A DNA stretch of 64,000 bases, taken from positions 56,529 to 120,528 of the IMG/VR virus record IMGVR_UViG_3300046777_001793. One strand, written 5' to 3'. The notes beneath the pieces are model-generated. The model was not told where the DNA came from. It was given only the letters and a program-made list of their open reading frames with translations, and searched no databases. Positions 3,087-61,300 of this stretch are shown here, one piece after another. Numbering within the stretch: position 1 is the first letter of the stretch; each line of letters opens with the position of its first letter. The DNA is from a virus. Both the position numbers and the translations under genes were made by a program.

Positions 3087-3203
3087 ACTTTCTAGCTCTT
3101 TGTACTTTTTTAAACATTCTCTTACCTTCCTTTTCCATCTTGTGTTTCTTATACTCAAACTCATTCATTGGAGCACATGCTGAAATAAAAAGAAACAATA
3201 TCA

Positions 3204-3725
3204 TTACTCTATACATTCCTTCTTTTTAAATTTTTCAAACACATCAAACACCTTATTCTCAAAAACCTTTCTCTTTCTTGACAAAAATGGATTCAGCATA
3301 TAACACACACGCACCTCACCATAAATCCTACCCTTAATCTGATATAACACCCCAGCAGAAACCAAACGTGTAATCAACTTCATAAACATGCTCTTTGATG
3401 AAATCTCTAAATACTTTTGTAGAGATTCATTTGTATGAGGTATAGTATTATTAAATACAATGTTCAAAGGAGTCTTTGTAACAACACTCATCTTAATCAC
3501 ATTTGCAAGATCACTATTGTTCAACAACTTTGTTAATTCCAATAAAGCTTCAGTTTCTAATACAGCATAATCATTAGAAGTAATCATACTCATACCAGTT
3601 TCCTTACTCACATTAACTCCTTCAGGAACTTCAGCCAATACCTTAACCTCACCTGTAACCTCATCTACATAAGATTCCAAATCTAACTCCACGTTACTCT
3701 TTAAGGACTTTACTTTAGCACTCAT
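3204..3725 (-). CDS. RepL-like winged-helix replication/regulatory protein
   Basis: HTH-like region followed by YMLNPFL, typical of the RepL family; adjacent iteron-like repeats. Confidence 0.65.
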   Translation of the reverse strand: MSAKVKSLKSNVELDLESYVDEVTGEVKVLAEVPEGVNVSKETGMSMITSNDYAVLETEALLELTKLLNNSDLANVIKMSVVTKTPLNIVFNNTIPHTNESLQKYLEISSKSMFMKLITRLVSAGVLYQIKGRIYGEVRVCYMLNPFLSRKRKVFENKVFDVFEKFKKKECIE

Positions 3726-8261: not shown

Positions 8262-8351
8262 GGTGGTATGGCGGAATTGGTAGACGTATTAACTCTTTAA
8301 GATGATTTCAACAGGAGAAAAGATATACAGGTTCAAGTCCTGTTGCCACCT
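8262..8351 (+). tRNA. degenerate tRNA-like element with Leu-type body; anticodon unresolved
   Basis: Acceptor GGTGGTA/TGCCACC, D-arm GCGGAATTGGTAGACGT, T-arm ACAGG-TTCAAGT-CCTGT; anticodon stem pairs poorly. Confidence 0.6.
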
Positions 8352-8483
8352 CATTTTCCCCTGCAATAAGTGGATCGGAGTGAATAATCAGGTAACAACT
8401 CCCCTCAAACGGTATGAGAGAATGTAAGGCTAAACAATAGTCTGATAACCGGAAAATAGTGACAGCCAGGAAAGACTGGTAAC

Positions 8484-45631: not shown

Positions 45632-46177
45632 ATGGATTTAGTAGAAGACTTAAAAACATATTGTCAAAAAAGCACAATGTTTTTATGGCCCATGTTGGCT
45701 TTACCAACAAATATAAAACCAATATCCACTTACCTTGTTGTAGATGGAATTGAAACAGATACTCCGGTATTATATGCATTATTTCCAAACACAACCATGA
45801 AGAATGTATTGCTAAAGCAATCTATCATGAGTCATAAAATGTTTGAGTATGTTATTAATGATGGAGATTTTGACATTGTAGTATTCAACTTAAATGAAAT
45901 TGACAAAGACTATTTATACGTTATTAATGGTAAATATTCTCACATTTCACAAAGCAATAAAGTTAAAATTGTAAGCTCAACAAAAAATAAATTAGCAGAG
46001 ATTGGATTATATCCATCAAAATATTATGATTTGTATAGAGATGAATTAGAGATTGACTTTGATGAAAAAGAAGGCCCAGAACTACTGGACCTTCCTGATT
46101 TCAATTGTAATGAAAAATTACATGTTTCAGATAGTGTAAAAAACTATTTAAGTAAAATAGTCACATCACTATCTTAA
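45632..46177 (+). CDS. hypothetical protein
   Basis: QKSTMFLWP..GKYS; last gene of the + strand block. Confidence 0.7.
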   Translation: MDLVEDLKTYCQKSTMFLWPMLALPTNIKPISTYLVVDGIETDTPVLYALFPNTTMKNVLLKQSIMSHKMFEYVINDGDFDIVVFNLNEIDKDYLYVINGKYSHISQSNKVKIVSSTKNKLAEIGLYPSKYYDLYRDELEIDFDEKEGPELLDLPDFNCNEKLHVSDSVKNYLSKIVTSLS

Positions 46178-49100
46178 AGTATGATCTTGTTTTAATCCAT
46201 GGCGAGGATCTATTATTTTACCATCTAAATTAAATTGGTACTTCATATAAAGATTAAATGCTTTATTGTTGTACCATTTAGTTTCAGCACCTTCCTTAAT
46301 ACCTTCTTGCCAAATATAAGGACCAGCATCTTGTTCGTAAGTATCACCATTTACAGCATAACCAAATCCATCAATGATGTCTTTAAAAATGTTGTTTTCA
46401 CCTACTACTGAACCAGACATAATTAAATTTGGCATAGAAGCAACTAATCCTGAATTATAAGGATCCCATGGTGTTACAGGAAGCATAGATTCTTGCTCTT
46501 TGATAATTCTATTTACAATCCTAAGAGCATTCATTTTAAACCATTCCATAGTAGAAAACCTATTACCCCATTGTACAGTCTGATTAGGTTGTACAAGGGG
46601 TAAATTAGGTACACCATTCATTTTTTTCATCATTGCATGTGCACCTTCTTCTCCTGGTGAAAAAGTAAAATCATTCTCCCCATTATCATCTTCATCATAA
46701 TGTGAAAGTCTTTGTTTTAATAACCTCAACATTATGTTAGTTGTAAGAAGTATCAATAAAGAATACAATGCAGTTTTTTGTGGAGCATTCAGTTTTCTTT
46801 TTGAATTTAGTATTGTTGCTATAGCTGTAGCAGCACCTACAAATGTTCCAAGTTCTCTTTGTTGAGTAGAATAATTCTTTGTAGCTGTACCATAAGTTCC
46901 TGTTTTTTTGTTAAACTTCATGTTATAATGTCCACTCAACATACCTGGAATAAACTTCATAATAAAGAATGTAGTTTTTACCCAAATATTTCTGAAAGCA
47001 TCAGGTTCGTTAAAGTCACTTACCGCACCAATATTCTTTTGAATAATTCTTTGGTGAACATTCTTAATTTTTTTTAATTTTTCACCCATTACAATTCTAC
47101 CATCAGAGTCATAAGATATTTTCATATCAGATGGAACTCCTTTAATAGTAACAACTCTTCCTTCATCATCTAATGTAAGAGCATCATAGAGAGCAACTTT
47201 TTTGCCATTAATTTCAAAACTATTATGTCTTAATATAGCCAAAAACTGATGAACAGGAACAGAATCACCCATATATTTTCTATCTGTAAATCTAAGTGTA
47301 CCAGCTCTAAAATCTCCCCAAACAGTTCTTGCACCAAATGTACCTGCATCTTTTTTCATCAAGTCTGGTACAGCATCAGTAACACGTAATAATTGTATTA
47401 ACGGATCTATTTCACCCGACTTATATCTTGCAGCCATAAGTTTTTTAACAGTATTAAATGATTTAGCTCTAGTCATTACTAAATCATTTAAACTATAATT
47501 ATCACCAGTTGCTCTTGAATAAAGTAATGTTTTACCTGAACCGTAGTTTGCAGTAGATGAAACAGCATTAAAACCAAACCAAAGAACAGAAGCATGCTTT
47601 TGCATGTAACTCATAAGTTTTAAATAACTTCTTTGAAATCCTGTTGAAAAAATAAATTTAGGATCAATAACCACATCTTCACCAGCAAGATGTTTATCAA
47701 GTGAATGCTGTATTGCTCTTAATCTTTTTGATTCACTACCGTTTAATTTAGCATTAAATAAGTTTAAACCTTTTAATTTATCTACATAAGACTTCATTTC
47801 AGGTGACATAGCAATATCCTTAATTGTTCTATTAAACAATTGCATAAATGGCATTGCTTTTCTTGCAGACTTATAATGCTCAATTGAATAAGATTGTAAA
47901 CCAATTGATGCAATTATATTTGTAGAAACATCATTAGCATTTAAATGATATAAACCAGTAATAGGTCTTGTCAAAGGTTCATCCATTTTAGGAGTTGCTA
48001 AACCAAAATCAACATCATCCGCTTGCTGTCTAAACACGTTGACAATAGATCTGATTTTAGCCATAAAGTATTCACCAAAACCTTCTCTTCTTTTAAGAGT
48101 ACCATAAAGAGATTTTTCAGTTCCAGATTTTCTAATATTTGGATAACTGATGTAACCTTTTTGAGAAGCATCTAATCCTTTTTGATTATCTAAATGATGG
48201 TCTTTAATCATTAGCATAGCATCAAAAAGCTTTCTGTCTTCTTCAAACATTCTCTGATAATCATCATCAATATAGCGGCGGTCATTAGGATCTGTTTTTG
48301 GCAACCATCTCCCACTATTATCTACGTTAGCTATAACAAGAGTTTCTGCTCCAGTAACAGGATTAACATCAATATAATCTCTTTCTATTTTTTCTCTAAG
48401 AAATTCTGGTTTAATTACTCTTGACCTATAGTTCATATTAGGAACTCTTGGAATACCATCAAGTTCAATATAACCATTAGGAAATAATCCATTTTGAGGA
48501 CTTAAAGGATTTGTAGTTGCTGCTCTTGTGTGGTAATAAGCAATATCCCTTGGAGCTGTAGTTGTCCAAGCTGGTGATTTAATATATTTTTCAACTAAAC
48601 CAATTGCTTGACCACTACTGTTATATTCAATTCTTTCAGCAAGATAGTGGTTATCAAAAAAGAAATCTCTAAAAGAAGGATCAGAACTAGCTAAATCTTC
48701 AAGAAAACTTACATTAGATAATAATTCCTCTAAATGTTCTTTAGATAATGAACCTGTAGAATAAATATCTTCACCAAACAATGCATCAATTTCAGTTGCT
48801 ACTGCATCAAGAACTCCTGTATTATTAAACACAACATCATTAAAAGCAACCAAATAATCATCAGTTGATTCTGTTATTGACATTTCACGTAACTCTTTTT
48901 CAATAGCACGTAATTCAACAATATCATTAAAATTAATAAGACTTTGTGAAATTTTTTGTTTTAAAATATCGTCATAGTATATATAGCGTTGTTCTTCTTG
49001 ATATGTAAGAGTGCTATATGTAGCTTTATTTTGTAAGAAAACAAAATCTTTATAATCATCACCAGTTAAACCACTTAACTGTAAATAAGAATCTTTTGCT

Positions 49101-52100
49101 CTATCTATTTCTTCAGCAAGTTCAGTAGCTTTTCTTTGTTGAGCAGATGTTAGATTAAACCCACTATATTGACCAGCTTCATTTTTTGTAGGCTTTAAAA
49201 TGTCTGTATAAAGTTTTTCATAAATACCAGAAATATCTTGAATAGAATTATTTACAGCAATAAGATCAGCCATAATTTCATTTCTTCTATCTACTAATTG
49301 CTTTCTTTTTTCAAAATAAGCATCATCAATTTCTACACTTGTATTATACTTTATCCACTTTTCAATTGCTACTTTACGGTCATTACCTTGAATATTTGAT
49401 GCATCAAGTCCATGTAAAAATGTGTCAAAACTATTTTCAAATTTCATTGGTACATCAACATATTCATAGAAATCTTTAGTCTTTTCTTTATATTGATTAA
49501 GTAATTCAGCAATTGCTAATTCATCACCAGTCTTGTCATTACCATTAGCATCAACTTTACTATACAATTGTCTAAACTCAACCCATAATTTACTAAGTTC
49601 AATCTCAATATCAAAACTTGTAGGATCATGCATTGTGTTAGCTGTAAGCATACGCATTCTTGTAAATACATCATCAATGCGTTCTTGAGCCATTTCCCCT
49701 ATTGGAGAATCCATCATATAATCAAACTCATAAACTTCATCAACACCATCTCTATTCATATATTCTGCTTCCCATTGCTTATAAAGCTTAACTGCTTTAT
49801 TGAAAGCTTTAAGATTTTCAGGAGTTGGATTTAATGTATGAGTGTCTTTTGCTTCTTGAATTTTAATTTCTAATAACTTTTTATCAGCTCTCCAATCTTT
49901 AAAATTATTAGCAAAAATCCATTCTTCAGAATCTTCAAATCCTGCTTTAGCAATAGATAATCTTTCATACTCTAATTGCTGTTCAGGTGTTCTATTTGTA
50001 ATAACAGATAATTGACTCCACTTTTCTCTTTCTTTTGCTGAAAGTTCATTTCTTGTATTAATTATCCTATCTTTCTTACCAATTGCTCTACCCAAAGCAT
50101 TTTCACCAAAAAGTTTATTTGCGTGAACAGTTCCTTTAAGTTTGCTTTTTAATTTGGCAAGAAGTTCTGCTTGTCTAGCATTGGCATTTCCGGAAAGTTC
50201 ATTAAAAAATTGTGAGATATAGTTATGGAAACCACCAACAATATCATCACTAGAATTTAAATAACCTGTTCCAATAGATGATAACGCACCTACATCACCC
50301 AATGTATTTCCAATAAGAGCTTTTAGTTGCTCTTTTGATATACTTTGAGAATACATACTCATTTGTTTTAAATAAGTGTATCTATTCTCATCTCTGTTTG
50401 CAGGAAGAACTTTTTCTAAATTACTTAATTCAGTATGTTCTGCTGGAGTTAATCCATACCATTGTTTGTATCTTCTTTCATATTCAGCATAAAGATTTGA
50501 ATCTTTTAAAGCTTGTAACTCACTCATAGCTTCATCTTCAATAGGCTGATTAATTTTTTTCATGTGTTCATAGAACTCATCAAAGACAGCATCTGAAAAT
50601 GTCTGTTTAACTTTATTAGAAAGTTGATTGAGTTTACCTTTGCTACTAATATATAATTGAGCAATTGGATCTTGCGTATTATATAAATCAAAGTAACCTT
50701 TAGAAATATTGTCATAAAAATTTTGCCAATTTTCAATATACATCTGCATAGCTAACATCACCTCAAAATCATCTCTTGTAAGTTGATTTGCTCTTAGTAA
50801 GTCAGCTCTTTCATTTAATTTTTCAAATACCACATCAACATTTGCTAACGCTGTAACAAATAATTCAATCTTGTGCTTTACAATTTCAGCATCTGTAGCA
50901 GTTGTATTATCATAAAGTTCTAATCTTTTTATTGCTCTTGTTCCTTTTGATGAAAGCTCATTAAGGTTTTTACGTATAGTTTGTAATATACCTTCATTAA
51001 AATCATCAGAAAGTTCAGCTTTTAGTGTAGCAAAAATTGAGTTTTCTTTAGTTAAGTTACCTACTTGTTTTTGAACAAGCTCATAGAAATCATCAATAAC
51101 CTGTTGTGTTCTTTCAAGACTTGCTTTTGTAAGAACATCTTGAACTTCTTCTTGATATTTTCTTTGGAACATTACAATATCATCCTCGGTAATGAAATCT
51201 GTATTTAATTCAAACATTTCACCCTCATTCAACATATCAAGAAGTTCTCTTAATGTAGTATCCGGTTTTAATTTAGATACATTAACATTTCTTCCAAATG
51301 CTTTTCTTAAAAACTGTTTTATGTTAAATAGAAGTTCTTTAAACCAAGACTTTTTCTCATACCCAAAATCCTTGTTCATTCTTTCCATAGTCTGAACCAT
51401 AACTTCTTCCATAAATTCAGGACTGTTCTCTTTTAGTTCAGGGTAGTATTTTTGGACATAAGTAAATAAATCAAAACCATCATCTGATTTTACTACATCA
51501 CTATACAGTTTGTTAAACAAATCAGGATTATTTTTTGATAAAGCTTTAATTATTGGGTGAGCAAACTCATGTAATACTGTATCATGATTAAATAAACCAG
51601 CAACAAAATAAACTTTACCTTTCATAAAGAAACCTGCTGCTTTTGGAGCATCAGGAAACATTACTTCAAACTCTTCTTCAGTAATTACTTCATAATCCAC
51701 ACCAAGTTGATTAGAAAGCCTCATCATTACTTCAGTAGCCTTTCTTTTGTTTTGAGATTCAAAAATTTCTTTTACTTCCTCAATACCTTTTAAATCATCA
51801 ACCAGTTCTTCTTCTTGATCTATTTGAAATACTGATTCATCTAATTCAGGTTGAATATCTTCAATTTCTCTATTCTTAAAAAGAATTTTATCAATAACAT
51901 ATTCTGGACTTCTAACTTTTCCATTTTGTTCAATAACATCTGTAAATGCTTCATCATACCCTACAACTTCAACAAGAGCATCAAACTTTACTTTATCTTC
52001 TTCAGATAAATTAAGTGGCTTACGCTTTAAATAAGTAACTGTTGATTTTGATGTTGGTGTTTGAACATCAGTTTCAGGTTTAGAATCCCATGTTTGTTTT

Positions 52101-52330
52101 ACACCAAAGAAACCAGGGTTTTCATTTTCTTTTATAGCATCAGTCTGTTCAAACATATCAGGTGTATTTTCTTCCCTAATTTGTAATCCCAAATCATCAA
52201 GTGTAGGAAAAGAACCACTAGGGTTCTTCTCCATCCACACTCCAACTTTTGCTTTTAATATTTCTTCATTTAAACCTGTGACTTGTTGTAAGTTAACAAA
52301 GTCTGGGTGAGTAGTATTAACACATATCAT
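46169..52330 (-). CDS. giant virion cargo (ejection) protein with N-terminal zincin-like motif
   Basis: 2053 aa; LHEFAHP..EEVMV; coupled downstream of the vRNAP gene, as in crAss-like phages. Confidence 0.75.
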   Translation of the reverse strand: MICVNTTHPDFVNLQQVTGLNEEILKAKVGVWMEKNPSGSFPTLDDLGLQIREENTPDMFEQTDAIKENENPGFFGVKQTWDSKPETDVQTPTSKSTVTYLKRKPLNLSEEDKVKFDALVEVVGYDEAFTDVIEQNGKVRSPEYVIDKILFKNREIEDIQPELDESVFQIDQEEELVDDLKGIEEVKEIFESQNKRKATEVMMRLSNQLGVDYEVITEEEFEVMFPDAPKAAGFFMKGKVYFVAGLFNHDTVLHEFAHPIIKALSKNNPDLFNKLYSDVVKSDDGFDLFTYVQKYYPELKENSPEFMEEVMVQTMERMNKDFGYEKKSWFKELLFNIKQFLRKAFGRNVNVSKLKPDTTLRELLDMLNEGEMFELNTDFITEDDIVMFQRKYQEEVQDVLTKASLERTQQVIDDFYELVQKQVGNLTKENSIFATLKAELSDDFNEGILQTIRKNLNELSSKGTRAIKRLELYDNTTATDAEIVKHKIELFVTALANVDVVFEKLNERADLLRANQLTRDDFEVMLAMQMYIENWQNFYDNISKGYFDLYNTQDPIAQLYISSKGKLNQLSNKVKQTFSDAVFDEFYEHMKKINQPIEDEAMSELQALKDSNLYAEYERRYKQWYGLTPAEHTELSNLEKVLPANRDENRYTYLKQMSMYSQSISKEQLKALIGNTLGDVGALSSIGTGYLNSSDDIVGGFHNYISQFFNELSGNANARQAELLAKLKSKLKGTVHANKLFGENALGRAIGKKDRIINTRNELSAKEREKWSQLSVITNRTPEQQLEYERLSIAKAGFEDSEEWIFANNFKDWRADKKLLEIKIQEAKDTHTLNPTPENLKAFNKAVKLYKQWEAEYMNRDGVDEVYEFDYMMDSPIGEMAQERIDDVFTRMRMLTANTMHDPTSFDIEIELSKLWVEFRQLYSKVDANGNDKTGDELAIAELLNQYKEKTKDFYEYVDVPMKFENSFDTFLHGLDASNIQGNDRKVAIEKWIKYNTSVEIDDAYFEKRKQLVDRRNEIMADLIAVNNSIQDISGIYEKLYTDILKPTKNEAGQYSGFNLTSAQQRKATELAEEIDRAKDSYLQLSGLTGDDYKDFVFLQNKATYSTLTYQEEQRYIYYDDILKQKISQSLINFNDIVELRAIEKELREMSITESTDDYLVAFNDVVFNNTGVLDAVATEIDALFGEDIYSTGSLSKEHLEELLSNVSFLEDLASSDPSFRDFFFDNHYLAERIEYNSSGQAIGLVEKYIKSPAWTTTAPRDIAYYHTRAATTNPLSPQNGLFPNGYIELDGIPRVPNMNYRSRVIKPEFLREKIERDYIDVNPVTGAETLVIANVDNSGRWLPKTDPNDRRYIDDDYQRMFEEDRKLFDAMLMIKDHHLDNQKGLDASQKGYISYPNIRKSGTEKSLYGTLKRREGFGEYFMAKIRSIVNVFRQQADDVDFGLATPKMDEPLTRPITGLYHLNANDVSTNIIASIGLQSYSIEHYKSARKAMPFMQLFNRTIKDIAMSPEMKSYVDKLKGLNLFNAKLNGSESKRLRAIQHSLDKHLAGEDVVIDPKFIFSTGFQRSYLKLMSYMQKHASVLWFGFNAVSSTANYGSGKTLLYSRATGDNYSLNDLVMTRAKSFNTVKKLMAARYKSGEIDPLIQLLRVTDAVPDLMKKDAGTFGARTVWGDFRAGTLRFTDRKYMGDSVPVHQFLAILRHNSFEINGKKVALYDALTLDDEGRVVTIKGVPSDMKISYDSDGRIVMGEKLKKIKNVHQRIIQKNIGAVSDFNEPDAFRNIWVKTTFFIMKFIPGMLSGHYNMKFNKKTGTYGTATKNYSTQQRELGTFVGAATAIATILNSKRKLNAPQKTALYSLLILLTTNIMLRLLKQRLSHYDEDDNGENDFTFSPGEEGAHAMMKKMNGVPNLPLVQPNQTVQWGNRFSTMEWFKMNALRIVNRIIKEQESMLPVTPWDPYNSGLVASMPNLIMSGSVVGENNIFKDIIDGFGYAVNGDTYEQDAGPYIWQEGIKEGAETKWYNNKAFNLYMKYQFNLDGKIIDPRHGLKQDHTLR

Positions 52331-55300
52331 TTTGTACAGTTTGCTAAGTTTTTTTGTTCTTCCAAAGATAGAGATAAAAATTGTTCTTGAGTCATACTGG
52401 TTGCCATACCTTTTGCTTTTAAATTAGATTTATACATATCCCATAAAGCCAAATTTTCACTTATATCATCAAATAAAGATAATTGAGTAGCAACTTGAGT
52501 AGGTTGGTTACTTATTGTTGGTTGATTTAATTTATTTAATATTCTTTTTTGTTTTTCATAAAAACTATTTCTTTGTTCATTAGTAATAACATCCGTATAA
52601 TCAATATTTAATGCATTTCTGATAATACTATCTTCATCAGAAAGACCTACTTTTTCTAAAAATATTAATTCATTTTCTTCAATACCTCTTGCTTTTAATT
52701 CTTGAAGTAATTGTTTTTCAAAATCAATATCTTCTGTAGCATAAGAACCTCCTTCATTATATCTATTATATTCCGCAACATCTGATTCAGTTAAAACTTT
52801 ATTGTAAGCATCAACTAATTGCAAACCTGTTAATTTAGAAAATCCATGATTAATTTCTGTTTTATGAATAATAAATTGTCCAGCAGGAATAATAATATTT
52901 TCATTAGAAATAAATCTTTCTTCACCTTCATCACCAATAACCCTATTACCATAGGATTGTGTTCCACCTTCTTTATTTAATGGAAAAATCTTTTCCGCAT
53001 AATCTTTATTTATTTCAATAATAAAAGGATTTTTAGAATATCTATTCCCATAATCTTCTGCTAAACCTCTATTATCTGCAAAAGAAATTCCTTTAGATTT
53101 AAACAATGAATCCTCAGTAACTTGCAACACAAGATTTCCTTTATCATCTAATGTAGGTTTTTTTTCTTGACCTCTGAATAAAGAAGAAGTAAATCCAGTA
53201 GATTTACTAGCAACTTGAGCAGGTTGAGAAAATTTACTCCAAGTACCAATAAGTTGACCATCAACTGTAATTTCAGAATAGTTATAACCTTTAGCTTCCA
53301 TATTAGCATAAAGTCTTTTTTCTCCTGTATTGTAACTACTAGCATCAATGTAGGCTTTGTTATCAGTAAGAATAGTAGCTCCTGCTTCTACAGCTTTAAT
53401 AGCTTCTTTAATAGTTCTATCTTGTTGAGTTTTTTGTTGTTCTTCAGTTCCTCTTCTTCCTCCAATAGAAACAAATATTACATCATTATCAGAATAATTA
53501 CCTGTATTAGCTAAAGCTCCTGCTTGTTGCCTGTAATTTTCTGTAGAGCTTCCAGTTATACCCTCACCAAAACCAATAAATTGAGTAGCAATACTAGCTT
53601 TGATAGTTGCTTTTTTATCAGCAGCTTGTATTGGTGTAACATTAAATATATTTTTTTTATCAAAAGAAAAACTTAAGTTTTGTGTTTGTTGTAATTTATT
53701 TACATCAGGAGTATGTCTTAATGTAATACTATATCTAACGCCTTGCTCACCTTCTTTTTCAACACCATGTTTATAGTTTAATTGAGAATCATATCCCATA
53801 ACTAATACGTGTCCATGTTTAGCATCTACAGTAAGATCATTTCCTGCATATTGTTTAATACCTTTAAAACCAAATTTACGTTGTGCACCTAAAGATAATG
53901 TCAATACAGTAGGGTTAACTTTACCATCTCTACCTGTTAAATTAACTTCAAGATCTGTATGATAACCTAATCCAGTTGAAAGTTCAGAATATTTATTGAT
54001 TAAAGCTGTATCAAAATAACCAGGTTTAACACCCATTCTTTTTTCAATAAGTCTTACAGTTTTTTCAATCCATTCAGGCATTTCTGCTTTAGCATGTTTC
54101 TTGTAAGATTCTCCTGAACCATAAGCATAATCAATTGGACCGTAATAAAGATTTTTTAATCTCCATTGTTTACCTGCTAAAAGAACTTGTTTAGATAATT
54201 CTGCTTCAAATTCTTTATCCATTTTAGCAAATAATCTATCAGCTTCATTTCTATCAAAAACTTCACCATCATAAATTTCAGCACCTTTTATCTCTTCAAT
54301 TTTTCTAAAGTTTTTCATAACAGGACCTTGAACAAAACCAGAAGAATTAGTTTTCAATCCTTGAGGGTTAAACACTTCTTCTTTTTGAAGTCTTTTAGCT
54401 CTACTTGACATAATAAAAGGAAGAACTGAACCCATTAAATGTTTCTCCAAATAAACAGCAGCAGGACTAACACCTATCTTTAAAGCGTTACCATTAGTAT
54501 CAACTAAAAGTTTAGATAAGTTCATTCTTTCAACAGCATTACCTTGGAAATAAGAAGTCAAAGCTTGTTCTGCAATCTGCAATCCATTTTTAATAAGATC
54601 TGATTCAGAAAGACCTTTCATTTTTTCCTTTATAACATTCATTACTCCTGTAATCTGTTTACCAAATGCATCATACATACTAACTTCAGGTTTAGTTACA
54701 TCATAATAAGCTGAAGTCTTACCTTCTAATGACTTATTAAATGAATAATATTTCTGAAAATCAGGACCATATTCAACTACCATCTTATAACCATTATTTC
54801 TTAAATACTGTTTTGCATAAGTTGCAATACCACCAGGAGCAGCACTTATATTAAATGTACTTACACCTGCAGCAATTGCTTTTGAGATTTCAGGAACATA
54901 CTTTTCATTAAAGAAATTTTTAACTGATTCATTATATTCTTTTAATGATGTATTAGCATAAGCATCTTCTTTTAATGAAGCTCCAAATATCCATACAGCA
55001 TCATTAGCAACGTATTCATTTTTATTTAAATCATTCTTTAATTCATCAATATAAGCATGGTGTTTACTTTGATATTTAGGTGCTTGTTTAGCTTTAAAAG
55101 CAATACCTTTTGTTGAACGTGAAGAAATATATTGGTCTGTTACAAATTCACCAGATCTTTTTACTACAGAATTAGCAATACTCATTGCTCCAATTCTACC
55201 CATTTTAGATTTACCAACCAATATAGGTAAGTTACCTCTATTGTCAACACCTAAATGCTCTAACAACATTCTGTCAATTTCATTCTGATCTAAATATTCA

Positions 55301-58300
55301 GGTGCTACAACTTTCTTTTTAGGGTATGCAATTTTAACATCACCATACACTTTAAGTATTTCTTCAACTTGTTCTAATGTAACATCTTCATCAGATTCAA
55401 ATAACATTTCTGGATTAAAAATAAACTCAAAATCAGATTGATTAGCTTGACTTATATTGTTAAACATGTGAACATTACCATACACATAAGCATTCTCTTT
55501 AATTTGAGTTTCACCTTTACCGTAATCCAAATTACCGTCAACAGTATAATTAACACCTTTACCTCTTGAGTTCCATTTATTATTTAAAACTAAATTGGAT
55601 ATTTTATCATAAAACTGACTAAGTAAACCAACATTAATTGGATCAACTTCACTTTTAACTCCCTTATTATATACAACTTTAGCAAACTTATTTTCATAAG
55701 ACCTAAAAGTTTTATAAGCTTCATCAAACAATTGTTCCATTAAATCAAAATCTAATTGATCATAGACTGTATTTAATATAAAATTTTGAGAAACTAATGG
55801 GCCCATAAAATACTTTGATGCTGCATTTAAACCACCCTGCATTACAAGATAATGGTCAAACCCTGCAAAAAATTCAGCAACTTCTGGTGCTATATCATCA
55901 TTACGTAATTCATGTAAATTTTCTACATAAGTTTCCATTAATTTTTTACCGGTATTTTTTGGTAAAAAGATATTAGACTGATAAGCTTTATAATCAGTAT
56001 TGCTTTTTAAGTCATTTATTAAAAGTAAATTATTAAGGTGTGGATGTTTCATTCTCATTCTCTTAATGATTGCATCTGCACCAACATAACTATTAAACAA
56101 ACTATTTGCCGGTTTTAATTGGTATAATGTTATAGCTTTAACCAAATGAGTTCTTGTCATTTTAGGGCTTACCAAAAAGTAATACTTTTCAAAAAGCTCT
56201 TGATCAGAAATAGATTTTAAGTTGGCAACATTTTCCTGAAATAAAAACTTAAACTTTGCATATTCTTTAACATCAGTAACTCCATCTTTTCTATAGATAC
56301 TTTTGATCATTGGATCAGTTGTCATAGAAAGTTCATTTCTAAGTAAGTTTGAATTAAAAGAAACAGTCAACTTATCAGAATCACCTTCAACAATATCAAT
56401 AGGATATTTAGAATTTAAATCTTCAACAACATCAAATGAAAGCATAGTACCATCTTCTAATACAACAGTTGAAGTATTAGAATTATAAACAGCATTTTGA
56501 TACAAGAACCAAATAAAGTCATTTTTAAATGCACTTCTTGATGTATCTGTAAAAGGCATAGCTTTTTTAACATGATCTTCTTTAGAAAACTTAATTGCCA
56601 TTTGATTGACAATTGGATTGTTTTTAATTTTAAAGAATTGCTTAAATAAATCAACAATAAGTTTATTGTTGTTTAATGTACCAACAGGATTCTCTTCAAA
56701 TTCTTTTTTCCAAGATTCAGGAACAACACTTCTTTTGCTAAAAAAGTTTTCTTCTTTAATAATATTGTTTTCTGCATCTGTGATATTAGCAACCTTAGTT
56801 GTATCATGCTTGTTTGCTTGTTGAAACTCTGTCAATTTATTTGACATTTCTTCAATCTGAAGATAATGAGAAAAATAAATAACATCATCATCATTAGGTG
56901 TTAGTGCACCAACTCTACCCCATAAACTTTCAAAGTCAAATTTAGCATCAAATTGATTATCAATGGAAGCTGGGTTTAAACCTTTAAATTTAGGTTTACC
57001 AAATAAAGATGGATGATTCTGAATAACCTTACCATAAGCAGCTTGACTCGCAGCTTTTGGGTTAAATTCAACAACCGGATTACCTTCTTCATAACCAATC
57101 TTAGAATATACACCTTGAAATTCTTTCTTGATTTTATTATACTCCATTACTAACGGATTAGAAGAAAGTGCAACAGCATCTTCCAATTCTACTCCGGACA
57201 TAAGCATAAATAACAATGTAGGTGTATTCTCTTTATTACCTTGAATATTAAATATCCAAGCATCTTTAGCAACATCCACATATCCATTAATTAACTGTGA
57301 AATTGTATCAGCAATTAATTTATTATTTACACTAGAAGTTCTTTTACCTAAAGCAATTCTTTTAACATCATATTTACCAACTTTTTCTGCTGAATAATTA
57401 TGAGCTAACTTTAAAGCATAAGATCTAAACTTTTCAATTTCTTCTTTATTTTGAGTTTTTAAAGCATTCTCAAAGCGTTCTAAAGCTTCTAATGTAGGAG
57501 CATTTAGTTTAGAATCAAATGTTGTAAATATTGCATAGAAAGTAGAAACAACTGCCGCTATACCAAGAGAATCTTTACCTACAGAGTTTTCTTGTTGTTT
57601 AGCCAAGTTATATTCATAATCAAAAATAGTTGTTGGAGATATAACTTTTGAACCTGTTACATCATCATGAATTTTTTCAAACTTATTAAACTTATGCTGA
57701 ATAGCATCTCTTACTCTTTTTGACAATGGTAATGCATCATCAACACTATTAGGAGTAATAAGATCTTTAATATTACTAGCATCTAATATTTTTTCAGTAA
57801 GTAATTGCAATATTTCATTCTCAATACCTTTTGTACTTGAGTTTTTCATTGCTTCTACATTCTCTGAAATTTTATTTGATGTAGCGTTTAATTTATCATA
57901 CAATGCATTAGACTTATCAATTAAAGCCATAACATCAGCATCTTCTTTAAATAATTCTTTTTCTTTAGCAGATCTTTCTTTACGGATGTTTTTAATTTCT
58001 TGTTCTAATTCTTGAATCTTTAATTCAGCTTCTTCAGTAATTTGTTTCTTTTTATTCTTACCAGTTTTAGCTGTAGCAATAGTAGCAATAGTATTGTTTA
58101 ATGCTTCTATTTTCTTTTTATTCTTACCAATTAACTTGTTTTGTTTTTCAAATAATGCCTTAACTTCATCCTTAATTTCAAGTTTTTTAGAAGAGAATAA
58201 TTTATCTTTTTCTTTTTTGACAGCATCAATATCTTTCTTGATAACTTTAAGATCTTCTTTCAAGTTATCATTCTCATCTTTAAGTTGTTCATAAGGAACA

Positions 58301-61300
58301 CTAAGCTGTTTGTATTGATATAGTTTTACTTTACCATTGATTCTTGTAATACTTGGCAACATAAAAAACATTTTATCAATATCATAATCCGCACCAGTCT
58401 TAGCAACAATTTCTGAAGGAAGAATAACAATTGGACCAGCCCATTCAGGTAAAAATTCAGCAACAATAGCAACATCTAATGCATTAGGACCTTGAGTAGG
58501 GATACGCACACCAGGAAACTGTAGTAATGATTTATTTTCTGCAACCCAGTTTTTATCTTTTATAGCTTGATTTAATCTAACTCTTGAAGCTTCCCAATCA
58601 ATATTACCATCATTATCTTTTACAGCAATAATTTTTTTATCAGAAGGATGAGTTAAATAAATTAAGTTTTTAAAATCACCCTGTAATGAAATTTTAACTT
58701 CCATTGCAGCAACAGTAATCTTACCATCAGCATCTTTTTCAATTGGATAAAACTTTAATTCATTTGTACCATACTCTGCTAACTGTTCATCAGTAGGCTT
58801 TTCAAAATTTTCAAAAATAGCACCAGAAACTTGTACCATAGATTCACCATTAACTTTAAATCTACGTAGTTTCTTATCAACCAATGCTGTTAATATTGTT
58901 TCAATTTTTTGTGAGTTAAGATCAAATGACAAGTCTTCAATTAAATTACCATTTACATCTGCAATACCTTCAATCTCATGCTCTAAAAAATCATTTTTCT
59001 TTAACTCTTTTTTGATGTAATCAACAATTGCTTTTGTATCACCAACGTATGTTTGTTTTTCAGCATCCCACTTCATTGAAATATCTTCAAGAAGCTCATC
59101 TTTAAAAACTTGTCTTAATTTACTAATAGAACTAAAATATCTTTCTTTCCAGGCATAAGCTTTATAAGTTCTCTTTTTATCAAGAGATTCTGCTTTCCAT
59201 TGTTCTTCTGTTCCTTCATACTCAACAGGAACACCATTCTCCATTAAACCATGAAGAACCATTTTACGCATCTGTGTAGCAAATGTAGTTTTACCTTTAT
59301 ATCCTTCAGCAAGATAAATAACATTCTTTAAATGACTTGCTGAAATAATATTCTTAACAAAAGGTTTATTGTCCACAACATTTCTATCTTTATCATAGAA
59401 GTTATCTAATTCTCTTTGTAAAACGTATTTTCCTTGTTCATTCAATGTACGTTTTACTCTTGATAATGAAGACAATTTAGAACCTGATTTCATTACAGTA
59501 TAATCAACTCCTTCACGCATCATTTTTTCATGAAGCTTTTGCAGTTTAGTTCCTTGAATTAATGCAGGTATTAATGGCATTAAAGAGTATTTATGGAAAC
59601 CTTTTCCATCTAACGGTTGGTTAAATTTATCTTCTGCTCTAACAGAACCAAAGTATTGGAACTTTCTTACAGGGAATGTAGTAAGATAATCTTCAGTAGA
59701 AATCTTTTCACCTTTAATCATTTTTTGATAAAGAGCTTCCTGACCGTCAGACCATTCACCATAAGAAAAATTTAACAATCTGTACATGTCAAATGAAATC
59801 CAACCTTGACCGTCTGCTTCATCCATACCTAAATAAGATTCTGCTTTCTCGCCAATTATTTCTCTAAATGATTCAATGTATTTTGAATTTGCTTTTGACT
59901 CTTCTAATACAGCAGTATTGATTTGTCCATTATAAACTCTAGGAGTTGTTCCTTGGTAGAATTTAGATGAGTATGCAAATGCTTCAAACTTTTTACTGTT
60001 AACAAAATCTAGAAATGCTTGATCTACAGCAGAAATTTTACCACTTGAAATTAAACCAGCATTACGCTTATGAAAATCTTCAGAAGAGATTTTATACAAT
60101 GCAATATCACCTAAAAATAAATGAACAAAGTTCATGTTATTTATAAAGTTATTAAGAGTAAATGTTTGAAACATTACTTTTTTTGCAGCATCTTCTTCTA
60201 ATATTTTTTCATCTCTATTAAGAGTCATGTATTGTTCTACAGTTGACTTTTCAAAAGGAATATCATTATAATTGATTTCAATATTTAAAGCTTTACTTTT
60301 AAAATATTTAACCATGTCAGAATCAATTAGTGCTTTTAAATCATCAGATAAAAGACTATCTATATCAAAAACAGAAATAGGTTCATCATCAAGTAAATTT
60401 TTTAATTTCCCTCTTGTATCTTTATCTAATAAATTTAAAAATTGCATAAAATCCTGACCTCTATCAAGGTATTCAAAATCAAATACAAACTCTTCATCAG
60501 AACTTAATATTTCTTCTTTAAGATTTTTTAATCTTTGAATCCTTACAAGTTCAGCACCTAAATGATATTTAAACTGTTCATACAACAATGTTCCTTTGTA
60601 ACCAGGTGAAAAAATTTCATGTACTTCATTCTTTTCAAAAATAAGTTTTCTACTTGCATCACCAGTTTTATTACCACGTACTTCATCATTAACTAATTGA
60701 GTACCGTAAAAAGCAAGAGTTGTTGACTTAGCTTCCATACGTGTAACTTCTTGAACACCTTCAAGTGTCATGTAGAAGTCAGTAATAAATTTAGTTTTCT
60801 CATCTGAAGAAATTGATGCAATACCTTTTTCTACTTCAGTAGTTTTTGTTGTACCATCTTCTTCAATTTTAGTTTGAGTATATTTAATTTTAGAACCTGT
60901 TAAGTTTTCCAACTTAAATTCAACTTTAGGGTTTTTTTTACCTCTAAGAACTGAATTAGGACTATCTAAATTAAATAACTGAACAAATGCTTTATTACCT
61001 GCAACAAATGGATTAATATTAATATCAAACTTCTCCATTCCAGGCATAGCCAATAATTCATCATAAGAATTTGCTGTAGATAAAGCGTGCATCTCTAATG
61101 TTAAAGATGAGTTTAATGCTTTCTCTGATTGCTTTTCACCATAAGCAGTTGTAGCCATGAATGAAACATTATCATTGCTATAGCGAGTATGTAAGTTTTG
61201 TAAAGCATTTTTAATACCATACAATGCAGGTTGATTTTCAATTATCTCATCTTTACCAACTTTTGTTTTATAATTGAAACCGTTAAAAATATCTGAAAAC

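What the first reader, a model, noticed from the sequence alone, without database searches (positions are those of the whole stretch)
52327..55145. Virion RNA polymerase carries a C-terminal train of enzyme modules: an injected effector array
Seen, in order after the polymerase body: an alpha/beta domain (~54780-55145), an AlkB-type dioxygenase (~53705-54286), a second related alpha/beta domain (~53233-53650), an ART-like domain (~52860-53190) and a short helical cap. The two alpha/beta domains share N..Y..ND.(V/I)...I.KA..AG....GY and may be SLOG-like. Established: crAss-type vRNAP is packaged and ejected with the genome, and phage polyvalent proteins string such domains together. Inference: the obligatory injected polymerase serves as a carrier delivering DNA/RNA-repair and NAD-using anti-host enzymes before any phage gene is expressed.
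Basis: partly seen in the sequence, partly recalled or inferred. Interest (0 to 1): 0.85.

Follow-up and report, generated by a model that had tools for sequence, protein, structure and literature searches.

The report
Virion polymerase carrying swappable enzyme modules
A marine-type crAss-like phage has inserted an AlkB repair enzyme, an unknown but very conserved domain and an ADP-ribosyltransferase-like domain into the giant RNA polymerase that such phages pack into the virion, so these enzymes probably enter the host together with the DNA.

Summary
The minus-strand ORF 52327-63999 is a crAss-type virion RNA polymerase: its DYDID motif aligns with the catalytic DFDID of phi14:2 gp66. Near its C-terminus lie an intact AlkB domain (Pfam E 2e-18), a Rossmann-like domain of unknown family ("dom2"), an ART-fold domain with a conserved R/S/E-type triad, and a short terminal cap.

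Two corrections. The first alpha/beta domain belongs to a ~450-aa block that is colinear in the closest relatives, so it is lineage-conserved body and not a swappable module. A SLOG assignment could not be shown.

Giant relatives from metagenomes carry other cassettes in other orders: RecD-like helicase, NADAR, a kinase, ART-PolyVal, cpYpsA and AlkB. This is the syntax of phage "polyvalent proteins", here riding on a crAss-type polymerase. Delivery at ejection is inferred, not shown.

New in passing: these giant cargo proteins are almost cysteine-free, but carry one Cys at the C-terminus and one at residue 3-6 of the next protein. The pattern holds in this genome, in phi14:2, at one adjacent pair each in p-crAssphage and cr108_1, and in 16 of 16 IMG/VR loci with a complete 3' end. 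It suggests end-to-end tethering.

The gene also runs past the window and contains one in-frame TGA.

The parts
52327..63999 (-). vRNAP gene, the part inside the window (3890 codons plus stop). The gene continues across the circular junction of the contig.
   Evidence: Stop-to-stop length is 3964 codons. It is preceded in frame by a TGA and a 341-codon ORF that begins MKIC.
57010..60312 (-). Polymerase core (residues ~1230-2330) similar to Crassvirales vRNAPs
   Evidence: tblastn found 27 phage records, including phi14:2 g066 and crAssphage gp44. BLASTP to gp66 gives three colinear HSPs.
58375..58389 (-). Catalytic DYDID motif (residues 1871-1875)
   Evidence: It aligns residue for residue with gp66 1361-DFDID-1365. 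Mutating any Asp of that motif abolishes activity, according to passages of the preprint.
63187..63201 (-). HEAFH (HExxH) motif, residues 267-271; possible zincin-type peptidase site
   Evidence: Read directly from the sequence. The surrounding residues 251-350 are shared by ~47-48 of 70 relatives. No Pfam match.
54370..55752 (-). Lineage-conserved C-terminal extension of the body (residues 2750-3210). It consists of an alpha+beta part, the Rossmann-like 'alpha/beta-1' (residues 2943-3092, window 54724-55173) and a helical bundle.
53716..54252 (-). AlkB-type 2OG/Fe(II) dioxygenase cassette (residues 3250-3428). It carries HTD at 3347-3349, H3411 and RYSITLR at 3422-3428.
   Evidence: Pfam PF13532, E 2.1e-18. 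Alignment to human ALKBH2 puts GYHTD on GEHRD and YKHGV on WYHSL. Motif positions.
53218..53664 (-). 'dom2' (residues 3446-3594): Rossmann-like alpha/beta cassette of unknown family, very highly conserved
   Evidence: Block pLDDT mostly 85-96. It is 52-87% identical (median 71%) in 47 of 47 relatives whose polymerase core is only 23-44% identical (median 27.5%). Its position in the protein varies. No Pfam, PDB-sequence or Atlas match.
52495..53217 (-). ART-fold cassette with a helical sub-domain (residues 3595-3835). The ART core is residues 3604-3714, window 52858-53190. Candidate triad: R3609 (LFRGQ), S3639 (GISFA), E3691-x-E3693 (EGEERF).
53191..53226 (-). Upstream copy of an in-frame direct repeat that encodes the linker QPAQVAS
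   Evidence: the repeat finder family D2: 36 nt, 78% identity, spacing 720 nt = 240 codons. Peptide.
52471..52506 (-). Downstream copy of the same repeat, encoding the linker QPTQVAT, followed by QLSLF
52330..52494 (-). C-terminal helical cap (residues 3836-3890). It ends ...NLANCTK and holds the protein's only cysteine in the window (residue 3888, window 52336-52338).
   Evidence: The cap is shared with P0002 and P0072.
46169..52330 (-). Next cargo-type giant gene (2053 aa). Its start overlaps the vRNAP stop. It begins MICV, and its only cysteine is residue 3 (window 52322-52324).
   Evidence: Its position matches that of phi14:2 g065.

Best explanation
What it is. The ORF is the two-barrel virion RNA polymerase of an environmental crAss-like phage with a circular 120.5-kb contig. 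Three enzyme-type cassettes, ~620 aa in all, sit between the lineage-conserved body (to about residue 3210) and a conserved ~55-aa terminal cap. They are joined by Q/P/T-rich linkers:
- an AlkB dioxygenase with an intact catalytic set;
- a Rossmann-like domain of unknown family that is far better conserved than the polymerase itself;
- an ART-fold domain with a conserved Arg / Ser / Glu-x-Glu triad.

Relatives hold different cassettes in different orders at the same place: RecD-like helicase, NADAR, AAA_33 kinase, ART-PolyVal, cpYpsA and AlkB. The tail is therefore a recombining 'polyvalent protein' array.

How it most likely works. The whole polypeptide is packed in the capsid with the other cargo giants. 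It is threaded, partly unfolded, through the tail ahead of or with the DNA, and refolds in the cytoplasm. Its cassettes then act in the first minutes, before any phage gene is translated. AlkB would remove alkyl lesions from phage DNA or early RNA, or undo a host-imposed methylation. The ART would use NAD+ to modify a host or nucleic-acid target.

Shown here: the domain identities, the mosaic variation and the polymerase identity.
Taken from the literature: crAss vRNAPs are packaged and ejected.
Inferred: the cassettes stay attached, are active, and have the targets proposed.
For: Polymerase identity. DYDID at 1871-1875 aligns with gp66 DFDID 1361-1365. tblastn of residues 1300-2700 hits 27 phage records, including phi14:2 g066, IAS virus 'RNA polymerase' and crAssphage gp44. 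The gene order giant / vRNAP / giant matches phi14:2 g067 / g066 / g065.

Cassettes. AlkB: Pfam E 2.1e-18. ART fold: 15 of the 16 rows that align to that part of the model are, as far as I can tell, ART-superfamily or ART-like.

Variation, from my hand tally of the precomputed Pfam column for the 71 proteins (self included):
- AlkB 18
- RecD-type helicase families 16
- NADAR 9
- DUF7831 4
- ART-PolyVal 2
- cpYpsA 2
- AAA_33 1
- none recorded 32

I re-ran Pfam on the last 1600 aa of 12 IMG/VR relatives:
- helicase after dom2: L003, L008
- helicase before dom2: L007, L010 (L010 also has a kinase)
- AlkB after dom2: L014, L015
- NADAR after dom2: L011
- nothing recognised: L005, L006, L016, L017, L019

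Further points:
- dom2 and AlkB also occur N-terminal of the core in some relatives (P0006, P0047, P0061, P0071).
- The closest colinear relatives stop 100-500 aa after the shared body, so the cassettes are an insertion.
- The ART cassette is bracketed by an in-frame direct repeat that encodes the linker.
- The cassettes contain no cysteine, like the rest of the cargo giants. This fits their staying in the mature packaged protein.

Literature, passages read. gp66 is a virion protein translocated with the DNA. crAss001 gp47, gp49 and gp50 were found in virions by mass spectrometry and modelled as ejected cargo. Polyvalent proteins are predicted to be packaged and injected, and the N4 vRNAP is treated as one.
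Against: - No direct evidence that the tail is present in virions. The protein carries an HExxH motif, and the gp66 preprint raises proteolytic activation as a possibility, so the tail could be removed.
- The set of relatives was gathered by similarity to this tail, so the domain frequencies are biased.
- dom2 has no recognisable family at all.
- In this assembly the gene carries an in-frame TGA 342 codons from its start, so the full product may not be made as annotated.
Confidence: 0.68

Rival explanations
1. The cassettes are accessories of the polymerase's own task rather than anti-host weapons. AlkB would clear 1-meA/3-meC-type lesions from the long-stored virion DNA or from single-stranded templates so that the vRNAP is not blocked. 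Helicase cassettes in relatives would open the template. The NAD-linked domains would process RNA ends, as KptA/Tpt1 does. This reading overlaps with the main one on delivery and differs on the target.
Against: The conserved triad is Arg/Ser/Glu-x-Glu. From recall, that is typical of protein- or DNA-targeting ARTs and is not the His-His-type site of KptA. NADAR, ART-PolyVal and cpYpsA in relatives are domains described for conflict systems. Module turnover is rapid, which is more usual for arms-race genes.
Confidence: 0.3
2. The tail is removed before packaging, or acts late in the producing cell. The polymerase gene would then serve only as a convenient late-expressed scaffold.
For: There is an HExxH motif in the same protein. 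The literature considers cleavage of fused crAss polyproteins and proteolytic activation. P1 DdrB is processed before packaging.
Against: A conserved cap with a near-terminal Cys lies downstream of the cassettes, and its partner Cys sits at the start of the next cargo gene. Cleaving off the tail would discard this conserved terminal feature. The cassettes share the cargo proteins' lack of cysteine. The N4 vRNAP is packaged unprocessed despite its peptidase domain.
Confidence: 0.1
3. Artefact: a chimeric assembly, or separate genes wrongly read as one ORF.
For: The source is a metagenome-type contig with one in-frame TGA near the 5' end of the gene.
Against: The frame is open for 3964 codons. 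P0002, from another contig, is colinear with the query at 59-62% identity (62% across the 5' region including the TGA position, 59% over residues 2750-3240) through AlkB into dom2 (about residue 3500), and again in the terminal cap (residues 3805-3888); between them it carries other sequence. Seventy further giant proteins and 18 IMG/VR loci show the same kind of fusion.
Confidence: 0.02

Closest known systems
Cellulophaga phage phi14:2 gp66, the crAss-type virion RNA polymerase (Drobysheva et al.; preprint 10.1101/2020.03.07.982082, passages read)
   Same: Same catalytic D[FY]DID motif in the same local context. Same flanking giant genes. Same terminal-cysteine pattern.
   Different: gp66 has 2180 aa. 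This protein has ~4300 codons, with a long lineage-specific extension plus the AlkB / dom2 / ART cassettes. BLASTP shows no similarity to gp66 beyond query residue ~2290, and phmmer against PDB sequences did not find gp66 at all.
Phage and plasmid polyvalent proteins (Iyer, Burroughs, Anand, de Souza, Aravind 2017, PMC5512222; passages read)
   Same: Several unrelated enzymatic domains sit in one giant polypeptide in a virion-gene context. The domain vocabulary is typical: ART, SLOG-type cpYpsA, NADAR, helicase, kinase and a possible metallopeptidase motif. Those proteins are predicted to be packaged and injected.
   Different: The carrier here is the crAss-type two-barrel vRNAP. The words 'crAss' and 'Cellulophaga' do not occur in that paper's main text. 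AlkB/2OG is not mentioned there either ('2OG' 0 occurrences; 'AlkB' 0 occurrences for that paper in the listing).
Coliphage N4 virion RNA polymerase
   Same: It is a giant packaged and ejected polymerase that also carries a non-polymerase (metallopeptidase) domain, and Iyer et al. discuss it with polyvalent proteins.
   Different: From recall, N4 vRNAP is a T7-like single-subunit enzyme, unrelated in fold to crAss vRNAPs. No AlkB/ART-type train is described for it in the passages I read.
T4 Alt, a head-packaged and injected ADP-ribosyltransferase
   Same: It is the precedent for an ART delivered from the capsid with the DNA to act on host proteins at once.
   Different: Alt is a separate protein and is not fused to a polymerase. 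No sequence similarity was tested or seen here.
AlkB domains inside replicase polyproteins of plant RNA viruses (recalled, no call)
   Same: An AlkB demethylase is fused to a viral polymerase-containing polyprotein.
   Different: Those are RNA viruses of plants with RNA-dependent polymerases made inside the cell. Here a DNA phage fuses AlkB to a packaged DNA-dependent RNA polymerase.

Membership tests
crAss-type (two-barrel) virion RNA polymerase | Catalytic DxDxD motif with Ile/Val at the fourth position, alignable with gp66 DFDID | tested here: met
   KTGADYDIDKMFFMLPS aligns with KTGSDFDIDKMYVMLPN.
crAss-type (two-barrel) virion RNA polymerase | Sequence similarity of the core to Crassvirales vRNAPs | tested here: met
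   27 phage records at 21-38% identity, including g066, IAS 'RNA polymerase' and crAssphage gp44.
crAss-type (two-barrel) virion RNA polymerase | Transcription-block synteny: flanked by two other giant virion-protein genes | tested here: met
   ORFs of 2125 aa / vRNAP / 2053 aa, against g067 / g066 / g065 in phi14:2.
crAss-type (two-barrel) virion RNA polymerase | Two double-psi beta-barrels in one chain | not tested
crAss-type (two-barrel) virion RNA polymerase | Presence in virions and ejection into the host | not testable with these tools
   Known only for phi14:2 and crAss001.
AlkB / 2OG-Fe(II) dioxygenase (PF13532) | Profile match above the curated cut-off | tested here: met
   67.7 bits against 31.2, covering profile positions 11-194 of 194.
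AlkB / 2OG-Fe(II) dioxygenase (PF13532) | HxD...H iron triad and RxxxxxR 2OG-binding motif (the motif definition is recalled) | tested here: met
   HTD 3347-3349, H3411 and RYSITLR 3422-3428. The first two align with ALKBH2 HRD and H.
AlkB / 2OG-Fe(II) dioxygenase (PF13532) | Oxidative demethylase activity | not testable with these tools
   Needs an enzyme assay.
ADP-ribosyltransferase superfamily | ART fold (split beta-sheet core) | tested here: met
   [not shown]
ADP-ribosyltransferase superfamily | Conserved catalytic triad (R-S-E type: Arg on strand 1, Ser-x-Ser/Thr on strand 2, [QE]xE before strand 5; definition recalled) | tested here: inconclusive
   L[FY]RGQ, G.SFA and [QE].EERF are kept in 6 of 6 homologues and lie on the predicted strands. 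I assigned them by eye, not by a structure-based alignment.
ADP-ribosyltransferase superfamily | Match to a curated ART sequence family | tested here: not met
   No Pfam family at E <= 10. hhalign to the ART-PolyVal domain of P0013 was negative. The Atlas gave only leads below 0.9.
SLOG (SMF/DprA-LOG) superfamily, for the two alpha/beta domains | Structural or profile similarity to LOG, DprA, YpsA or cpYpsA members | tested here: inconclusive
   [not shown]
Polyvalent proteins (Iyer et al. 2017) | Two or more unrelated effector-type domains in one polypeptide of a phage or conjugative element | tested here: met
   AlkB + dom2 + ART-fold domain here. Relatives carry helicase, NADAR, kinase, ART-PolyVal and cpYpsA.
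Polyvalent proteins (Iyer et al. 2017) | Virion-associated genomic context, with packaging | tested here: inconclusive
   The context is met by homology to packaged vRNAPs. Packaging of this protein cannot be tested here.

The most novel reading that the evidence does not exclude
The three giant cargo proteins of Crassvirales would be tethered end to end in the virion through their terminal cysteines. These are the pre-polymerase giant, the vRNAP with its effector cassettes, and the post-polymerase giant. The C-terminal Cys of one would pair with the Cys at residue 3-6 of the next, most simply as a disulfide that the host cytoplasm then reduces.

The cargo would then leave the capsid as one ordered thread of ~8,500 residues. 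Effector cassettes could be inserted anywhere between the two conserved ends without disturbing delivery. This would explain three things: why these proteins are otherwise cysteine-free, why some phages fuse them into one polyprotein, and why the cassettes sit upstream of a conserved terminal cap.
Probability: 0.35. Interest if true: 0.85.

Novelty: new variant of a known kind. Interest (0 to 1): 0.66.

Why it matters
crAss-like phages are among the most abundant phages known, and what they deliver into the cell with their DNA is largely uncharted. This case shows that their obligatory ejected polymerase doubles as a chassis for swappable enzymes. That gives a catalogue of candidate first-minute effectors: AlkB, ART, NADAR, helicases, kinases and one very conserved unknown domain. 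Each can be tested one by one.

It also extends the polyvalent-protein idea to a second, unrelated kind of virion polymerase.

The terminal-cysteine pattern, if it marks a covalent chain, would give a concrete and testable mechanism for the ordered ejection of megadalton protein cargo.

Tried and rejected
- BLASTP of the two alpha/beta domains against each other was not significant. Only profile-profile comparison related them.
- Pfam at E <= 10 on six tail pieces gave only noise outside AlkB.
- phmmer of the whole protein against PDB sequences found only ALKBH2, at E 0.017. Profile searches of A1 and A2 against PDB sequences found nothing meaningful.
- Foldseek against the PDB for both models, and against BFVD for the tail model, gave no row at E <= 1e-3.
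- ESM Atlas: the ART piece gave leads below 0.9 only (Tox-ART-HYD1 0.88, PARP 0.85). dom2 gave no usable hit.
- hhalign of the tail alignment against the ART-PolyVal domain of P0013 was negative.
- tblastn of the 939-aa tail against 50,697 phage records hit one record, an AlkB-like stretch in a 595-kb phage.
- dom2 searched among proteins of 88-282 aa gave 29 hits, most on very short contigs and so probably gene fragments. One carried a name and a NADAR Pfam entry; the other 28 had neither.
- The ART cassette searched among proteins of 423-2000 aa gave one hit, P0122.
- The search for related loci with the N-terminus of the downstream giant found no relative.
- Complex prediction on the cap (residues 3790-3890) with the first 200 residues of the next protein returned 'no answer', score 0.22 against a mark of 0.34. 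It counts neither for nor against binding.
- ARAGORN found a single tRNA-Lys and no suppressor tRNA that could explain the in-frame TGA.
- Not in print, as far as my searches reach:
  - The listings showed no paper that links crAss vRNAPs with AlkB, ART, NADAR or polyvalent domains, or their termini with cysteines.
  - 'cysteine' and 'disulfide' have 0 occurrences in the gp66 preprint.
  - 'cysteine' has 0 occurrences in the crAss001 atlas, whose 'disulfide' passages concern tail and portal-vertex proteins.
  - Fig. 3 of PMC7886860 shows 'recognized conserved domains' of the transcription block. I could not see it, or any supplement, so prior depiction of some domains cannot be excluded.

Full report
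**The gene.** The window is positions 56529-120528 of a single 120,528-bp contig. The contig's ends overlap by 27 nt, which is how a circular assembly looks.

The finding lies at the 3' end of one huge minus-strand ORF, 52327-63999, which runs off the window. Read across the circular junction inside a script, the stop-free frame has 3964 codons. Immediately upstream, in the same frame and separated by a single TGA, is a 341-codon ORF that begins MKIC. The closest relative, P0002 (4234 aa), starts MKICITPD. It aligns colinearly at 62% identity straight across the TGA, which falls opposite a Thr. So the real gene is about 4306 codons with one in-frame TGA. No suppressor tRNA is encoded; the only tRNA is a tRNA-Lys. 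I cannot tell whether the stop is a variant, an error or a read-through site.

**It is a crAss-type virion RNA polymerase.**
- tblastn of residues 1300-2700 against 50,697 phage records hit 27 records, all below 60% identity. They include Cellulophaga phage phi14:2 g066 ('Catalytic RNA polymerase subunit'), IAS virus 'RNA polymerase' and crAssphage gp44.
- BLASTP to gp66 gives three colinear segments. The segment KTGADYDIDKMFFMLPS aligns with gp66 KTGSDFDIDKMYVMLPN, so DYDID 1871-1875 lies on DFDID 1361-1365.
- According to the preprint passages I read, each of those aspartates is needed for activity. gp66 is a virion protein translocated with the DNA, and the fourth position is Ile or Val in crAss-like phages.
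- The neighbours match too. A 2125-aa ORF precedes the gene and a 2053-aa ORF follows it, as g067 and g065 flank g066.

**Where the body ends.** Two sets of relatives give different views.

The first set is the 70 giant proteins found with the tail as query. They share residues ~200-2500 with the query, and after that mostly only residues ~3446-3600.

The second set comes from an exhaustive HMMER search of 1.84 billion representatives with residues 2750-3240. It found only 22 proteins. The full-length ones among P0072-P0090 align with the query colinearly in one long segment, from residues ~33-220 to ~3110-3220 at 31-46% identity. They then end after a further 100-500 aa.

**The inserted train.** Three cassettes lie between residue ~3210 and the terminal cap.

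1. AlkB.
   - Pfam 2OG-FeII_Oxy_2 matches residues 3250-3428 at E 2.1e-18, 67.7 bits against a cut-off of 31.2.
   - The PHROG 'alkylated DNA repair' family matches at 4.6e-9.
   - The HxD, His and RxxxxxR positions are present (HTD 3347-3349, H3411, RYSITLR 3422-3428). The first two align with those of human ALKBH2.
2. dom2, residues 3446-3594.
   - It is modelled confidently as a small doubly wound alpha/beta domain with a C-terminal hairpin.
   - It has no Pfam, PDB-sequence, Atlas or clear fold match.
   - It is remarkably conserved. In 47 of 47 relatives that have both parts, dom2 is more similar to the query (median 71% identity) than the polymerase core is (median 27.5%).
   - Its position varies, including N-terminal of the core in P0047, P0061 and P0071. 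Four relatives have an insertion in the middle of it.
'SLOG-like' is not.
3. An ART-fold domain, residues 3604-3714, with a helical sub-domain reaching to ~3835.
   - In the VIA-align wide search, 15 of the 16 listed rows that align to this part of the model are ART-superfamily or ART-like proteins. For some of them the classification is from recall.
   - Three motifs lie on the expected strands: LFRGQ, GISFA and EGEERF. They are kept in all six known homologues of the cassette (the query, P0003, P0018, P0047, P0051, P0053).
   - Against this, no curated ART sequence family matches. The cassette is also rare.
- It is bracketed by an in-frame direct repeat, 52471-52506 and 53191-53226, 240 codons apart. 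The repeat encodes the linker QP(T/A)QVA(T/S). Repeated linkers of this kind would give recombination sites for cassette exchange; that is an inference.

**The train varies between relatives.** My hand tally of the precomputed Pfam column (71 proteins, self included, chosen by similarity to this tail and therefore biased) is:

| Family | Proteins of 71 |
|---|---|
| AlkB | 18 |
| RecD/PIF1-type helicase families | 16 |
| NADAR | 9 |
| DUF7831 | 4 |
| ART-PolyVal | 2 |
| cpYpsA | 2 |
| AAA_33 kinase | 1 |
| nothing recorded | 32 |

I confirmed ART-PolyVal, cpYpsA, AlkB and DUF7831 by hmmscan on P0012 and P0013.

In 12 IMG/VR relatives fetched through dom2, Pfam on the last 1600 residues shows different orders:
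- helicase after dom2: L003, L008
- helicase before dom2: L007, L010 (L010 also has a kinase)
- AlkB after dom2, whereas here it is before: L014, L015
- NADAR after dom2: L011
- nothing recognisable: L005, L006, L016, L017, L019

None of the 50,697 reference phage genomes shares this tail beyond one AlkB-like stretch.

**How it most likely works.** Published work on crAss001 found the three polymerase-associated giants in virions by mass spectrometry. It models them as cargo that leaves the capsid partly unfolded through the tail (passages; review passages). The polyvalent-protein paper predicts that such multidomain proteins are packaged and injected, and it already counts the N4 virion polymerase among them because of its peptidase domain. 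By analogy, the cassettes here enter the cell on the polymerase and act before phage translation starts.

AlkB could repair alkyl damage on the incoming DNA or on early RNA, or remove a host-imposed methyl mark. The ART-fold domain would spend NAD+ on a host or nucleic-acid target. I put 0.68 on the delivered-array reading. I leave about 0.3 for the overlapping view that the enzymes mainly serve the polymerase's own templates. Nothing here shows directly that the tail is packaged.

**An unexpected feature: terminal cysteines.** The part of the polymerase inside the window has exactly one cysteine in 3890 residues, the third residue from the end.

In this genome the arrangement is as follows:

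| Protein | Cysteines |
|---|---|
| upstream 2125-aa giant | one, second residue from the end |
| 341-codon start of the polymerase gene | one, residue 4 |
| downstream 2053-aa giant | one, residue 3 |

phi14:2 shows the same arrangement: g067 has a single Cys as its last residue, g066 has two at residues 3 and 2179 of 2180, and g065 has a single Cys at residue 3.

The pattern holds widely:
- Among the 71 proteins, 67 have a Cys in the last 8 residues, 51 have one at positions 3-5, 49 have both, and 51 have no internal Cys. The four without a C-terminal Cys are P0012, P0017, P0019 and P0071.
- All 13 full-length proteins of the colinear sub-lineage have both.
- Of the 18 IMG/VR loci, 16 contain the 3' end of the giant ORF. 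In all 16 it ends with a Cys in its last 6 residues, and the next ORF, starting -10 to +40 nt away, has a Cys at residue 3-6. In 13 of the 16 that is the next ORF's only Cys in the part seen. L003/L004 and L012/L013 are duplicates, so these are 14 distinct cases.
- At the upstream junction, 5 of 7 loci show a preceding long ORF ending in a Cys.
- In p-crAssphage, gp45 ends ...SCM and gp44 starts MSC. In cr108_1, gp053 ends ...LCK and gp052 starts MANVC. In those two phages some of the proteins also have internal cysteines.

The first protein of the trio has only a C-terminal Cys, the middle one has both, and the last has only an N-terminal Cys. The simplest reading is an end-to-end link, most plausibly a disulfide formed in the virion. 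crAss001 virions do contain structural disulfides. The preprint notes that some phages fuse the three proteins into one polyprotein. I found no mention of these cysteines in the texts I could search.

For the present finding, this means the cassettes lie between two conserved ends. It also argues that the tail stays part of the mature protein.

**Verdict.** It is a new variant of a known kind. The terminal-cysteine pattern is the most novel lead.

Noticed in passing
window 52322-52338; G000:C1:1279-1290 and 1263-1274; L001; L003-L021: The giant cargo proteins are nearly cysteine-free. Each carries one Cys within the last 1-8 residues, and the next protein carries one at residue 3-6. This holds in this genome, in phi14:2, in p-crAssphage (gp45/gp44), in cr108_1 (gp053/gp052), in 67 of 71 and 13 of 13 metagenomic relatives, and in 16 of 16 IMG/VR junctions. 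It suggests end-to-end tethering.
   Followed up: partly
outside the window: G000:C1:249-251 (minus strand): A single in-frame TGA separates a 341-codon ORF (MKIC...) from the rest of the vRNAP frame. The closest relative reads straight through, with Thr at that place. No suppressor tRNA is present in the genome.
   Followed up: partly
window 53218-53664: dom2 is 52-87% identical (median 71%) in relatives whose polymerase core is ~27% identical (47 of 47). It changes position within the protein, and in P0034, P0039, P0050 and P0068 it carries a 70-180-aa insertion at the same point. Its function is unknown.
   Followed up: partly
window 63187-63201: An HEAFH (HExxH) motif lies in a region shared by about two thirds of the relatives. 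It may be a zincin-type peptidase like the one noted in the N4 vRNAP and in crAss gp65-type proteins. Pfam does not recognise it.
   Followed up: no
window ~57850-58300 (residues ~1900-2050): A Lys/Glu-rich, coiled-coil-like stretch directly follows the catalytic motif. Only 17-21 of 70 relatives share it.
   Followed up: no
[not shown]
   Followed up: no
G000:C1, whole contig: The contig ends repeat 27 nt, so the 120.5-kb genome is probably circular or circularly assembled. The window's right edge is the contig end and cuts the vRNAP gene.
   Followed up: yes
window 8262-8352 (G000:C1:64790-64880): This is the only tRNA found in the genome. It is a 91-nt tRNA-Lys(UUU), long enough to hold an intron or an extra arm.
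   Followed up: no
G000:C1:252-17834 and window 46169-63999: All ORFs of the presumed cargo block have 0-0.34% Cys, while most other ORFs of 250 aa or more have 0.4-3.1%. Some other structural ORFs (G000:C1:39558-46721) are also low.
   Followed up: partly
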